From the NCBI RefSeq assembly GCF_046569735.1, contig NZ_JBKICG010000012.1, positions 30,224-54,223 of the forward strand: a stretch of DNA of 24,000 bases, in the 5' to 3' direction. Source of the stretch: Peptococcus simiae (GTDB lineage: Bacteria; Bacillota; Peptococcia; Peptococcales; Peptococcaceae). The notes below the pieces were generated by a model. It was not told where the DNA came from. It ran no database searches and saw only the letters and a list, made by a program, of their open reading frames with translations. The position numbers and the translations under genes are program-made. Positions within the stretch are counted from its first letter, which is position 1. Every line of letters begins with the position of its first letter. Below are positions 14,696 to 16,317 of the stretch, piece after piece.

Positions 14696-14821
14696 ATGAA
14701 ACCTGAAATCGTAGCAATGGGTAATGGTTGCAAACTATGTGCGGGATGTACAGGATGTATGTTCTGTGGTCCTAGTCCAGCAGCTGGTGTAGGTGTAGCT
14801 GGTTTTGTAGGATTCTTCTAA
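14696..14821 (+). CDS. Cys-rich RiPP precursor peptide (41 aa), candidate sactipeptide/ranthipeptide substrate; absent from the ORF track
   Basis: AGGAGG (14683..14688) lies 7 nt upstream of the ATG. Translation: MKPEIVAMGNGCKLCAGCTGCMFCGPSPAAGVGVAGFVGFF. Five Cys are spaced CxxCxxCxxCxxC, followed by a GPSP turn-like segment and a Gly/Val/Phe tail. The gene is 212 nt upstream of an RRE-rSAM-SPASM enzyme on the same strand. Confidence 0.7.
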   Translation: MKPEIVAMGNGCKLCAGCTGCMFCGPSPAAGVGVAGFVGFF

Positions 14822-14901
14822 GAAGAAGGGGGAAATTCTTGGATAACAAGAATGAGAGTAAAAAGTTATGTTTACTAGTCTCATATATAAATATGACAAA
14901 T

Positions 14902-14936
14902 AAAAAAACCTATAATTAATTTTTTATAGTTTTTTA
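14902..14936 (+). terminator. AT-rich hairpin with T tract between precursor and maturase (probable leaky terminator/attenuator)
   Basis: AAAAAAACCTATAA...TTATAGTTTTTT: a CTATAA/TTATAG stem flanked by A and T runs. It sits between the precursor gene and the maturase gene, where a leaky terminator could set their relative expression. Confidence 0.4.
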
Positions 14937-15033
14937 GTCGATTTGTTTTGAGACTAGTAATAACTTTTGATAAGTTTACAGCTAAAAAAGTTTTGTCTGT
15001 AGGATGTAGTATTAAGTCGGGGGATATGAAAAG

Positions 15034-16317
15034 GTGTATTTAAAGGCTAAAAATATAAAAGCAATTGAAAAACAAAAAAATGCCAATATTTTGGTTGTTG
15101 AAAATAGATATGAGAAAATGGGTGAATCTCTTTATAGAATAAATAATGATGCAACAAACATAATACTTTGGTTAGATGGAAATCATACATTTGATGAAAT
15201 TGCTAAAAAGATGTGTGATAATAATACGAGCTTAATTGAAGAAGCTAAAATTAATTTAAATGAATTTTTAAATTCTTTAATTCTCAATTATGGCATTGTT
15301 ATTGATAGATTAGAAAATCCGAGATATGATGAAATAAGGGTTTTAGGAAATGGTAAAACACAGTACCCATCAGCAATATCTATTGAAATAACACATACTT
15401 GTAATGTAAAGTGCTTACATTGTTATGGTGAATATTCATGCTATAATAAATTTAAAGACAATACTGAATCGATATTTAAAGTACTAGAAGATGCAAGAAG
15501 ATCTGGTACTAGAGTAGTAGAATTTACGGGTGGAGAAGTTACCTGTCATCCAAGATTTCTTGATATTTTAGACAAGGCATATTCTTTAAATTATCATTTA
15601 GTAAGTATTTTATCAAATGGAACAAACTGGAATGAAGACTTGTTTAATGAAATATATAAAAATAGGGACAAGACGGTAGTACAAATAGATCTACATGGAG
15701 ACAATGACGATTATATTAATTGGTTTATGGGTTCTAGAATAAAAAACATTTCGAATATCATAAAAAGAAATATAGTTAGGATTCACAAAATGGGAATATA
15801 TATGAGAATTGTAACTATGATAACACCGAATAATATAGATCAATTAGAAAATATTGCTGATTGGATTCATGAAAATGGCATAGAGACTTATGGTTTATCT
15901 TCAATTATACCAATGGGAAGAGCTGCTTTAAAAGACAATAATAATTTATTATTAAAAACTAAAGAAGATTCTGAAAAACTGAATGAAGTTATTTCAAAAA
16001 TAAATAATAAGTATGGATATGGTTTTCTATATCAAGTAAAGGACGGAGATCCAAACGTTAAAAATTGTGGAGCATTTACAAGAAATCCATCTATTACTCC
16101 AGAGGGAGATATTAAATTTTGTGCTATGGATGATCAAACACTTATAAAAAGCTTTGGCAATGTATTTAATACTGATATCGGTAAGCTATACACAGAAAAT
16201 TATAAAATATTAGATTTGATAAGAAATATAGAAGCACCTAGCTATGTAAATTCCGAGTGTGAAAATTGTGAGAAGAAATTTTTTTGTAGTGAATGCATTA
16301 TAAGACTAACTATATGA
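15034..16317 (+). CDS. Radical SAM peptide maturase with N-terminal PqqD-like RRE and C-terminal SPASM/twitch-type Cys cluster
   Basis: RRE-like region: YRINNDATNIILWLDGNHTFDEIAKKMCDNN...INLNEFLNSLILNYGIV. rSAM motifs: CNVKCLHCY (CX3CX2C) and FTGGEV (GGE). Auxiliary clusters: CGAFTRNPSITPEGDIKFC (CX13GX4C) and CENCEKKFFCSEC (CX2CX5CX2C). GTG start with GGGGGA upstream; the start is uncertain. The protein ends 6 aa after the last Cys, so the usual final SPASM Cys is absent. Confidence 0.88.
   Translation: MYLKAKNIKAIEKQKNANILVVENRYEKMGESLYRINNDATNIILWLDGNHTFDEIAKKMCDNNTSLIEEAKINLNEFLNSLILNYGIVIDRLENPRYDEIRVLGNGKTQYPSAISIEITHTCNVKCLHCYGEYSCYNKFKDNTESIFKVLEDARRSGTRVVEFTGGEVTCHPRFLDILDKAYSLNYHLVSILSNGTNWNEDLFNEIYKNRDKTVVQIDLHGDNDDYINWFMGSRIKNISNIIKRNIVRIHKMGIYMRIVTMITPNNIDQLENIADWIHENGIETYGLSSIIPMGRAALKDNNNLLLKTKEDSEKLNEVISKINNKYGYGFLYQVKDGDPNVKNCGAFTRNPSITPEGDIKFCAMDDQTLIKSFGNVFNTDIGKLYTENYKILDLIRNIEAPSYVNSECENCEKKFFCSECIIRLTI

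What the first reader, a model, noticed from the sequence alone, without database searches (positions are those of the whole stretch)
14696..16317. Unannotated five-cysteine CxxC-ladder peptide next to an RRE-rSAM-SPASM enzyme: candidate new sactipeptide-type RiPP
Seen in sequence: a 41-codon gene with a strong AGGAGG RBS encodes MKPEIVAMGNG-CKLCAGCTGCMFC-GPSP-AAGVGVAGFVGFF. It falls below the ORF-track length cutoff. Downstream on the same strand, 212 nt away, is a radical SAM enzyme with a PqqD-like recognition element, CX3CX2C, and auxiliary Cys clusters.

Established knowledge: sactisynthases link N-terminal Cys sulfurs to alpha-carbons of residues in the C-terminal half, giving a hairpin. 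Thurincin H has a very short leader (about 9 aa), a CxxCxxCxxC donor ladder and four bridges.

Inference: this peptide has the same layout (a leader of about 10 aa, a turn, a hydrophobic acceptor arm) but five evenly spaced Cys. It could therefore carry five thioether bridges, more than any characterised sactipeptide I know of. The acceptor arm is almost purely Gly/Ala/Val/Phe. A ranthipeptide-type (beta/gamma-carbon) linkage or another chemistry cannot be excluded.
Basis: partly seen in the sequence, partly recalled or inferred. Interest (0 to 1): 0.85.

Follow-up and report, generated by a model that had tools for sequence, protein, structure and literature searches.

The report
Thurincin-like five-cysteine sactipeptide operon, maturase disrupted
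The small cysteine-ladder gene is real and belongs to the thurincin H family of cross-linked antibacterial peptides, carried on a mobile element, but in this genome a jumping gene has split its modifying enzyme, so the peptide is probably not matured here.

Summary
The 41-codon gene (14696-14821, AGGAGG RBS) is real. Its Cys-ladder codons show 13 synonymous and 0 non-synonymous changes against a Lachnospiraceae copy. CxxC-ladder peptides with 3, 4, 5 or 7 Cys precede homologous rSAM genes down to 26% enzyme identity.

The intact enzyme (453 aa elsewhere) is 35% identical over 424 residues to ThnB, the thurincin H sactisynthase (E 7e-90). It has an RRE-like N-terminal fold, CX3CX2C and a seven-Cys SPASM motif. 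The leader shares M-x-x-P-x-I/V with ThnA. LanFEG-like ABC genes and a histidine kinase/LuxR pair follow. This is a new five-Cys member of the thurincin H/gnavucin D family.

- A 1,531-bp IS110-family element (16305-17835) splits the rSAM gene after codon 424. The last 29 codons, with the invariant final SPASM Cys, lie at 17836-17926. The maturase is probably inactive here.
- The identical peptide is already deposited as "hypothetical protein" (WP_012797179.1, Anaerococcus prevotii plasmid pAPRE01).
- Five bridges are unproven. In thurincin's register the acceptors would be A30, G33, G36 and G39, and the tail is one residue too short for a fifth.

The adjacent NRPS genes are an unrelated inserted cassette.

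The parts
14595..14612 (+). Terminator-like hairpin GGCGGTCTTCGGACTGCC plus T-run. It closes the preceding transcription unit. It is part of a ~138-bp repeat also present at 4919-5056.
   Evidence: 1 found against 0.1 expected; for the repeat
14684..14689 (+). AGGAGG ribosome-binding site of the precursor gene
   Evidence: conserved as AAGGAGG upstream of the homologous peptides
14696..14821 (+). Precursor peptide gene (41 aa). It has a short leader MKPEIVAMGNG, a five-Cys CxxC ladder from C12 to C24, a GPSP turn and a Gly/Ala/Val/Phe tail.
14822..15033 (+). 212-nt spacer containing a long imperfect hairpin (about 14861-14967). It may be an attenuator that sets the precursor:enzyme transcript ratio; that role is inferred.
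   Evidence: MFE -51.8 kcal/mol, z = -4.2, 0 of 200 shuffles fold as well
15034..16304 (+). 5' part (codons 1 to 424) of the ThnB-family RRE-rSAM-SPASM sactisynthase gene. GTG start with a GGGGGA RBS. As it stands the ORF reads into the IS and stops at 16317.
16305..17835 (-). IS110-family insertion element (1,531 bp). The transposase ORF is 16432-17637 on the minus strand. The junctions are ...CATTATAAG|ACTAAC... and ...CATTATACAAG|GGGACT...
   Evidence: (DEDD_Tnp_IS110 1e-40, Transposase_20 2e-23)
17836..17926 (+). Displaced 3' end of the sactisynthase gene (29 codons GLIGAKEIGVENCAWFNNKLNDEFRRLLI plus stop). It carries the invariant last SPASM Cys (C437) and W439. It overlaps the ABC ATPase start.
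   Evidence: removing 16305-17835 restores a 453-codon ORF, 448/453 identical to P0001
17923..18585 (+). ABC transporter ATP-binding subunit, LanF-like (probable self-protection and/or export)
   Evidence: TIGR03740 lantibiotic protection ABC, 1e-42, below cutoff; conserved synteny
18582..19930 (+). Two membrane proteins (237 aa and 214 aa) with 5 and 6 predicted TM segments. They are probably the permease subunits of the ABC system.
   Evidence: hydropathy; weak ABC2_membrane hit; synteny; ABC2_membrane_5 in distant relatives
19933..21090 (+). Membrane histidine kinase (5 predicted TM segments, HDDILQD H-box, weak LiaS/MctS-like hits)
21071..21664 (+). LuxR/NarL-type response regulator (MadR/MctR-like)

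Best explanation
This is a seven-gene bacteriocin operon of the thurincin H (ThnA/ThnB) type. It sits on a conjugative element that moves among Peptoniphilaceae, streptococci, enterococci and Lachnospiraceae.

In intact copies the following steps are inferred.
- The 41-aa precursor is bound through its short M-x-P-x-I/V leader by the N-terminal RRE of the 453-aa rSAM/SPASM enzyme.
- The enzyme abstracts alpha-hydrogens in the Gly/Ala-rich C-terminal arm and joins them to the ladder Cys sulfurs.
- This gives a nested hairpin with at least four sactionines. By homology with thurincin H the pairs are C24-A30, C21-G33, C18-G36 and C15-G39. A fifth bridge from C12 is possible.
- The LanFEG-like ABC system protects the producer and/or exports the peptide.
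- The histidine kinase and LuxR-type regulator control expression.
- No protease or dedicated exporter is encoded, as in gnavucin D.

In this particular window an IS110-family element has split the maturase gene after codon 424. That removes the last SPASM cysteine and 28 other residues. It also separates the downstream genes from the precursor promoter. This copy most likely makes only unmodified precursor, if anything.

Shown here: gene structure, homology, synteny, purifying selection and the IS insertion. Inferred: the chemistry, bridge pattern, antibacterial role, loss of activity and polar effect.
For: - ORF, RBS and spacing are as described.
- The ladder is under purifying selection and is not expected by chance.
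- Homologous enzymes of 26-99% identity are preceded by CxxC-ladder peptides with 3, 4, 5 or 7 Cys in Anaerococcus, Peptoniphilus, Clostridium, Blautia, Lachnospiraceae, a Planctomycetaceae MAG and sediment contigs.
- P0001 against ThnB gives 35% identity over 424 aa, E 7e-90, with all Cys motifs aligned. ThnB lies inside the family.
- The best NCBIfam hit is AlbA across the full length.
- The AlphaFold model (pLDDT 86) has an N-terminal unit of three strands and three helices. Its best PDB matches are SkfB, SuiB, CteB and anSME.
- The invariant Cys set is C123/127/130, C345/363, C409/412/418/421 and C437.
- The leader motif is shared with ThnA.
- The operon order is conserved in 10 of 10 loci that carry the identical peptide.
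- The ATPase is closest to lantibiotic-protection ABC subunits.
- IS boundaries are mapped and the ORF is restored on excision.
- Thurincin H linkages and cluster content come from PMC8172795. Gnavucin D has a 9-aa leader, four modifications and no cluster protease (PMC13239113).
Against: - No product has been observed, so the thioether chemistry rests on 35% identity to ThnB.
- Pfam SPASM and PqqD hits are below threshold for this sequence.
- The tail has only 17 residues after the last Cys. The thurincin register therefore leaves one Cys without a partner.
- A 38-aa natural variant (P0055) has a still shorter tail.
- That loss of C437 abolishes activity follows from the known role of the last SPASM Cys as an auxiliary-cluster ligand in anSME and CteB. 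This is my own knowledge and was not tested for ThnB.
- No leader protease or exporter is identified.
Confidence: 0.75

Rival explanations
1. The product carries five nested sactionines and is stapled from the first core residue (C12) to the C-terminal residue (F41). This would use a +5 register: C24-A29, C21-V32, C18-A35, C15-V38, C12-F41. It is the reader's maximal reading.
For: All five Cys are invariant in every full-length variant, with only synonymous change. The 17-residue tail equals exactly 5+3x4. The 7-Cys relative L019 has a 23-residue tail, exactly 5+3x6. A35, V38 and F41 are invariant among the five aligned copies.
Against: ThnB links at +6/+9/+12/+15, and in that register the fifth acceptor does not exist. 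Positions A29 and V32 vary (I, V, A). The 4-Cys relatives fit the +6 register (tails of 15 or 18 residues). The P0055 variant lacks three tail residues. Nothing has been measured.
Confidence: 0.3
2. The enzyme installs non-alpha (ranthipeptide-type) thioethers or some other radical modification on the peptide, not sactionines.
For: Related rSAM/SPASM enzymes in the AlbA/ThnB clade carry out several chemistries (PMC10288494). CteB and PapB families also give hits.
Against: Identity to ThnB is 35% over the full length. That compares with E 1e-13 for PapB and 8e-9 for CteB. The tail lacks the Asp/Glu/Asn/Thr-rich acceptors typical of ranthipeptides. Gly, which has no beta carbon, is the conserved periodic residue (G33, G36, G39). 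Cys-Gly sactionines are documented (StsA and BlaA).
Confidence: 0.08
3. The small ORF is not the substrate, or is not a bacteriocin. For example, it could be a Cys-rich metal-binding or membrane peptide that merely neighbours an rSAM enzyme with another role.
For: No activity data exist. The operon has no protease or dedicated exporter. PGAP calls the peptide hypothetical.
Against: The peptide and enzyme stay together across 26-99% enzyme identity and several phyla. The leader motif is shared with ThnA. The operon includes a lantibiotic-protection-like ABC system and a two-component system. Where the enzyme has been lost, the peptide gene is also truncated (P0066).
Confidence: 0.05

Closest known systems
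Thurincin H (ThnA1-3/ThnB) of Bacillus thuringiensis SF361
   Same: The maturase is homologous (35% identity over 424 aa, all Fe-S Cys motifs aligned). The leader is very short and shares M-x-x-P-x-V/I. The N-terminal Cys ladder has CxxC spacing and is followed by a C-terminal acceptor arm of 17-18 residues. ABC-2 type protection genes are present.
   Different: There are five Cys instead of four, with the extra one at the position of thurincin core residue 1. The predicted acceptors are Ala/Gly rather than Asn/Thr/Thr/Ser. There is one precursor copy instead of three. ThnP (S8 protease), ThnT (fused ABC exporter), the GntR regulator and ThnI are absent, and a histidine kinase/LuxR pair is present instead. 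The hosts are anaerobic cocci and Lachnospiraceae, and the operon is on a conjugative element. The product is uncharacterised.
Gnavucin D of Mediterraneibacter gnavus HB038 (PMC13239113, 2026)
   Same: It is a thurincin-like sactipeptide from a human anaerobe. It has a 9-aa leader, a compact cluster without a leader peptidase, and masses consistent with thioether formation.
   Different: Gnavucin D has four modifications and five tandem structural genes with 29-aa cores.
Subtilosin A / AlbA
   Same: AlbA is the best-scoring NCBIfam model for the enzyme across its full length, RRE region included (E 5e-25 to 3e-28).
   Different: The score of 88-98 bits is far below the equivalog cutoff of 850. 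The subtilosin precursor has three unevenly spaced Cys and is cyclised head to tail. There are no AlbB-G homologues here.
Apre_1838-family putative sactipeptide cluster (Apre_1837 rSAM), the neighbour on A. prevotii pAPRE01
   Same: It lies about 4.5 kb upstream of this operon on the same mobile element in pAPRE01 and in L002/L003. It is also a bacteriocin-type cluster with an rSAM enzyme plus a small peptide.
   Different: It has a different peptide family (PF27802) and a 500-518-aa rSAM enzyme, with an M16 peptidase in L003 and an ABC exporter. This is the A. prevotii cluster listed in earlier sactipeptide mining (Apre_1837; PMC4289311). By gene content it probably also matches the pneumococcal 'streptosactin'. 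It is absent from this window.

Membership tests
Thurincin H-type (type I, hairpin) sactipeptide system | Maturase homologous to ThnB with a CX3CX2C radical SAM motif | tested here: met
   BLASTP of P0001 against ThnB gives 35% identity over 424 aa, E 7e-90. ThnB is 35-53% identical to family members. C123/C127/C130 are invariant. Pfam Radical_SAM E 1e-17.
Thurincin H-type (type I, hairpin) sactipeptide system | N-terminal PqqD-like RiPP recognition element in the maturase | tested here: met
   The AlphaFold model has strands at 8-14, 17-23 and 31-36 and helices at 38-46, 53-60 and 65-86, with pLDDT 80-97. Full-length Foldseek matches go to the RRE-bearing enzymes SkfB, SuiB and CteB. The alignment to ThnB and AlbA covers this region. 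Caveat: the Pfam PqqD hit is sub-threshold (E 0.17).
Thurincin H-type (type I, hairpin) sactipeptide system | Complete SPASM auxiliary-cluster Cys set (CX9-15GX4C ... CX2CX5CX2-3C ... C) | tested here: not met
   The family and the allele restored by excision have C345-x12-G-x4-C363, C409/412/418/421 and C437, all invariant. In the window's ORF as it stands (15034-16317), C437 and the last 29 residues are removed by the IS110 insertion. The family passes; this copy fails.
Thurincin H-type (type I, hairpin) sactipeptide system | Precursor with a short leader, an N-terminal Cys donor ladder and a C-terminal acceptor arm, encoded next to the maturase | tested here: met
   Alignment with ThnA shows the leader Pro nearly invariant and four ladder Cys aligned. 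Synteny holds in all relatives.
Thurincin H-type (type I, hairpin) sactipeptide system | [quoted passage not shown] | not testable with these tools
   This needs MS/MS, NMR or labelling of peptide co-expressed with an intact enzyme.
Thurincin H-type (type I, hairpin) sactipeptide system | Accessory genes of the thn cluster (ThnP S8 protease, ThnT ABC exporter, ThnR GntR regulator, ThnI) | tested here: not met
   These genes are present in L185. They are absent from the window and from the conserved operon. They are not class-defining, and gnavucin D also lacks a protease.
Subtilosin maturase AlbA (NCBIfam NF012164 equivalog) | Score at or above the curated cutoff (850 bits) | tested here: not met
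   88-98 bits. ThnB itself scores 153 bits.
Ranthipeptide / SCIFF maturases (PapB NF047865, CteB-type TIGR03974) | HMM score at the cutoff, and a precursor with C-terminal Cys-rich motifs paired with Asp/Glu/Thr acceptors | tested here: not met
   PapB scores 49-50 bits against a cutoff of 340. The SCIFF maturase is not among the listed hits for this enzyme. The precursor has an N-terminal ladder and a Gly/Ala tail.
Non-RiPP rSAM/SPASM enzymes (anSME, NirJ, PqqE, MoaA, tungsten cofactor maturase) | Best HMM match, with no RRE and no adjacent peptide | tested here: not met
   All score below AlbA and far below their cutoffs. An RRE-like domain and a conserved adjacent peptide are present.

The most novel reading that the evidence does not exclude
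Intact alleles of this operon make a 30-33-residue sactipeptide with five nested Cys-to-alpha-carbon bridges. That is one more than the four I know of or found reported for a characterised sactipeptide. The acceptors would be mostly Gly, Ala or Val, and the outermost bridge would tie the first core residue to the C-terminal Phe. A 7-Cys relative in a Planctomycetaceae MAG (L019) suggests the ladder can be extended further. If so, ThnB-type enzymes would act as processive 'zipper' catalysts whose bridge number is set by the substrate. The product would be a conjugatively spread antibacterial weapon among human-associated Gram-positive bacteria.
Probability: 0.3. Interest if true: 0.6.

Novelty: new member of a known kind. 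Interest (0 to 1): 0.42.

Why it matters
Thurincin H-type sactipeptides are compact, protease- and heat-stable antibacterials, and few have been characterised. This operon is an uncharacterised five-Cys member. It is spread on conjugative elements through clinically relevant Gram-positive bacteria: Anaerococcus, Peptoniphilus, Streptococcus agalactiae, Enterococcus faecalis and gut Lachnospiraceae. It could therefore affect competition in human microbiota and provide a new scaffold.

The set of natural 3-, 4-, 5- and 7-Cys ladder substrates next to homologous enzymes is a ready-made series. It could be used to ask how a ThnB-type sactisynthase counts and positions its bridges.

For annotation, neither peptide nor enzyme is covered by a curated family model. 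For this genome, the practical message is that the cluster is probably dead because of an IS insertion. Cluster-calling software that scores domains only could miss this.

Tried and rejected
- Pfam and NCBIfam on the peptide gave no family at E<=1.
- A full-text search for the peptide string CKLCAGCTGC found no papers. Searches combining sactipeptide with Peptoniphilus or with integrative conjugative elements led only to SCIFF and unrelated reports.
- I considered that this is the pneumococcal 'streptosactin' (PMC6120550) and rejected it. That cluster has ssaA, ssaCD, a peptidase and three unknown genes, and it matches S. intermedius and Parvimonas. This fits the neighbouring PF27802-type cluster instead. 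I did not verify this by sequence.
- I considered that the Apre_1837 cluster of earlier mining is this one and rejected it. Apre_1837/1838 is the neighbouring cluster on pAPRE01.
- No supplementary files of the RODEO/rSAM compendium paper are held. I cannot say whether the peptide is in that dataset.
- The metagenome scan with distant family members returned mostly remote rSAM enzymes and only one further ladder locus (L104).
- The first thurincin locus fetched (L183/L184) had a decayed ThnB. An intact cluster was obtained from L185.
- The short variants P0066 and P0067, with a charged tail, looked informative about acceptor requirements. They are remnants with no rSAM gene nearby.
- The upstream NRPS genes were considered as part of a hybrid cluster and rejected. 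They are absent from most copies of the element and are flanked by a ~138-bp direct repeat.
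Full report
**Observation.** An ATG at 14696, preceded by AGGAGG at 14684-14689, opens a 41-codon ORF ending at 14821. It encodes MKPEIVAMGNGCKLCAGCTGCMFCGPSPAAGVGVAGFVGFF. After a 212-nt spacer, a GTG at 15034 opens a 427-codon ORF that ends at 16317.
- That protein has the CX3CX2C motif (C123/C127/C130) and a Pfam Radical_SAM domain (E 1e-17).
- Its SPASM hit is just under threshold (20.4 against 21.5 bits) and its PqqD hit is weak (E 0.17).
- The peptide matches no Pfam or NCBIfam model.

**Is the small ORF real?** Yes.
- It is the only stop-free stretch of at least 30 aa in the six frames of the window with a CxxC ladder of three or more Cys. In 300 first-order Markov resamplings the five-Cys ladder never appeared, and the four-Cys ladder appeared 0.007 times per window.
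- The exact 41-aa sequence is found in 172 blocks of the assembly collection. In all 10 loci shown it sits in the same operon.
- Codons 8-26 (MGNGCKLCAGCTGCMFCGP) differ from a Lachnospiraceae copy (L014) by 13 synonymous and 0 non-synonymous changes. They differ from Blautia wexlerae (L016) by 9 and 0.

**The maturase gene is broken in this window.**
- Every close homologue is 453 aa, not 427. The window protein ends ...FFCSECIIR-LTI*, whereas P0001 (99% identical) continues ...FFCSECIIR-GLIGAKEIGVENCAWFNNKLNDEFRRLLI.
- Those 29 residues are encoded at 17836-17926, directly before and overlapping the ABC ATPase start.
- BLASTN against five intact loci places a 1,531-bp insertion at 16305-17835. 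It carries an IS110-family transposase on the minus strand (DEDD_Tnp_IS110 1e-40, Transposase_20 2e-23). The junctions read ...CATTATAAG|ACTAAC... and ...CATTATACAAG|GGGACT....
- Removing 16305-17835 restores a 453-codon ORF that is 448/453 identical to P0001.
- In an alignment of 17 homologues (30-99% identity) the invariant cysteines are C123/127/130, C345-x12-G358-x4-C363, C409-x2-C412-x5-C418-x2-C421 and C437, followed by W439. This is the seven-Cys SPASM pattern, and C437 is the Cys lost here.
- In solved SPASM enzymes such as anSME and CteB the last Cys ligates the second auxiliary cluster. That is my own knowledge. For ThnB, only the middle three Cys were mutated (PMC8172795). Inactivation is therefore a strong inference, not a demonstration.
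- Other decayed alleles exist. P0094 has a 25-aa in-frame deletion across the same Cys cluster. P0066 and P0067 are truncated peptide genes with no rSAM gene nearby.

**What family is it?**
- NCBIfam ranks AlbA (subtilosin maturase) first over the full length (E 5e-25 for the window protein, 3e-28 for P0001). Both are far below the equivalog cutoff.
- By sequence, the nearest solved structures are SkfB (7e-21) and, over the full length, CteB (8e-9).
- An AlphaFold model of the intact protein (pLDDT 86, pTM 0.85) has an N-terminal unit of three strands and three helices, as expected for an RRE. It matches SkfB, SuiB, CteB and anSME best.
- For a direct test of the thurincin analogy I recovered the thurincin H precursor from the protein collection and then an intact thn cluster in B. 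thuringiensis CP004877.1 (L185). ThnB and P0001 are 35% identical and 58% similar over 424 residues, E 7e-90. Every Fe-S Cys aligns, including ENCAWF with DKCKWF.
- ThnB is 35-53% identical to the other members and representatives, so it lies inside this family. A profile search of 1.84 billion representatives finds 588 clusters at E<=1e-30.

**The precursor family.** Upstream of homologous enzymes I found the following peptides.
- Five-Cys peptides in Anaerococcus, Peptoniphilus, Clostridium, Blautia and Lachnospiraceae. M8-P26 is invariant except position 20 (G or A), and A30, A35-G39 and F41 are also invariant.
- Four-Cys peptides in L018, L098, L101 and L104.
- A three-Cys peptide in L017.
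- A seven-Cys ladder in a Planctomycetaceae MAG (L019).

Aligned with ThnA, the leader Pro (M-x-x-P-x-I/V) is nearly invariant and the four C-terminal ladder Cys align. The fifth Cys (C12) is extra on the N-terminal side, at the position of thurincin core residue 1.

Thurincin H links Cys4-Ser28, Cys7-Thr25, Cys10-Thr22 and Cys13-Asn19 (PMC8172795). The acceptors are therefore at +6, +9, +12 and +15 from the last Cys.
- Here those positions are A30, G33, G36 and G39. There is no +18 residue, because the tail has 17 residues.
- Cys-Gly sactionines are known from StsA and BlaA (PMC10288494).
- A +5 register (A29, V32, A35, V38, F41) would use all five Cys and end exactly at the C-terminus. The same arithmetic fits the 7-Cys peptide.
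- Four bridges is therefore the homology-based expectation. Five is possible but unproven.

**Operon and carrier.** In intact loci the gene order is precursor, maturase, ABC ATPase, two membrane proteins, histidine kinase, LuxR-type regulator.
- The ATPase is closest to lantibiotic-protection ABC subunits (TIGR03740, 1e-42).
- The two membrane proteins have 5-6 predicted TM segments, and the kinase has 5 TM segments and an HDDILQD H-box.
- No protease or dedicated exporter is present. The same is reported for gnavucin D, a thurincin-like sactipeptide of M. gnavus with a 9-aa leader and four modifications (PMC13239113).
- The spacer after the precursor gene folds into a long hairpin (z = -4.2). 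This may be an attenuator.
- The operon is on the conjugative plasmid pAPRE01 of Anaerococcus prevotii DSM 20548. PGAP labels the peptide 'hypothetical protein' (WP_012797179.1) and the enzyme 'radical SAM protein' (WP_012797180.1).
- It also occurs in ICE-like contexts in Peptoniphilus timonensis. Assemblies labelled Streptococcus agalactiae and Enterococcus faecalis carry it too.
- The sactipeptide cluster of A. prevotii listed in earlier mining (Apre_1837; PMC4289311) is the neighbouring, unrelated cluster ('Apre_1838 family').
- I found no paper describing the present peptide.

**Surroundings that do not belong.** The MarR, UvrA-like, PPTase, A-domain and C-A-T-R NRPS genes (about 5057-14487) are absent from nine of the ten loci that carry the identical peptide; only L006 has them. 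They are bounded by a ~138-bp direct repeat that includes the terminator-like hairpin. They form a separate cassette inserted upstream of the precursor promoter.

**Verdict.** The sactipeptide interpretation is supported by homology rather than mere analogy. The system is a new five-Cys member of the known thurincin H family, not a new kind. In this genome it is most likely inactive because an IS110-family element has split the maturase gene. The five-bridge idea remains the most interesting open reading, at a probability of about 0.3.

Noticed in passing
window 16305-17835: An IS110-family element (1,531 bp, transposase on the minus strand) is inserted in the rSAM gene. The left flank ...CATTATAAG resembles the element's own right end ...CATTATACAAG, which fits sequence-directed IS110 targeting. 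No copy of it occurs in any of the other loci fetched.
   Followed up: partly
window 612-2952: A group II intron lies here (Rfam D1-D4 at 659-787, D5/D6 at 2876-2952, RT/maturase ORF 1137-2858). It is inserted in the 2,547-aa SNF2 helicase/methylase gene of the mobile element. It is absent from L001 and present in L010.
   Followed up: partly
window ~5057-14487: A 9.4-kb cassette holds MarR, a UvrA-like ABC ATPase (751 aa), an Sfp-type PPTase, a stand-alone adenylation enzyme and a C-A-T-R NRPS (1,367 aa; its best partial hits are the myxochelin MxcG and aureusimine AusA NRPS models, with a terminal thioester reductase). It is flanked by a ~138-bp direct repeat (4919-5056 and 14488-14625). It is present in L006 but not in most copies of the element. 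It looks like a reductase-terminated small NRPS for a peptide aldehyde or pyrazinone-type product.
   Followed up: partly
window 22205-23918, and L003/L004/L006 beyond it: An HTH gene and an Eco57I-like DNA methylase lie downstream of the operon. In related loci a BsuBI/PstI-type restriction enzyme and a DncV-like (CBASS) nucleotidyltransferase follow. This is a defence island on the same element.
   Followed up: no
L186 (A. prevotii pAPRE01) 2729-8256; L002 and L003 upstream regions: A second, unrelated rSAM bacteriocin cluster lies about 4.5 kb upstream of this operon in some elements. It comprises the 'Apre_1838 family putative sactipeptide bacteriocin' (PF27802), a 500-518-aa rSAM enzyme, an ABC exporter and VanZ, with an M16 peptidase in L003. 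It is probably the Apre_1837 cluster of earlier mining papers and perhaps the pneumococcal 'streptosactin'.
   Followed up: partly
L001/L002/L005 15785-20126: In several elements the operon is followed by another small ORF (56 aa) and a 728-aa rSAM protein (Fer4_12 and Radical_SAM), with a second LuxR regulator. This may be a third RiPP-like unit. The window has the restriction-modification genes here instead.
   Followed up: no
L019 5501-5671 (Planctomycetaceae MAG): A 56-aa peptide with seven Cys at exact CxxC spacing (MEAPAFLTTSIASGCTTCAVCVACSGCTTCVLCGDSAGFTGSVSLAGLTDFFGDWC) lies upstream of a 26%-identical rSAM enzyme. It is the longest ladder seen in this survey.
   Followed up: no
P0094; L091-L094; L099/L100: The cluster decays in the wild. 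One enzyme allele has a 25-aa in-frame deletion between two ENC repeats. Some truncated 35-aa peptide genes have no maturase nearby. A distant relative has had the N-terminal part of its precursor replaced.
   Followed up: partly
P0047-P0050 (Blautia-type copies): Many metagenomic copies of the Blautia-type peptide read through the normal stop into 15-30 extra residues (...GFVGFFWVINHNKQK...). This could reflect stop-codon variation or gene-calling and assembly effects. It is unexplained.
   Followed up: no
P0072/P0073 (Anaerococcus vaginalis): Two different five-Cys precursor variants have accession numbers seven apart in the same assemblies. This suggests tandem duplicated operons or two copies of the element in one genome.
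   Followed up: no
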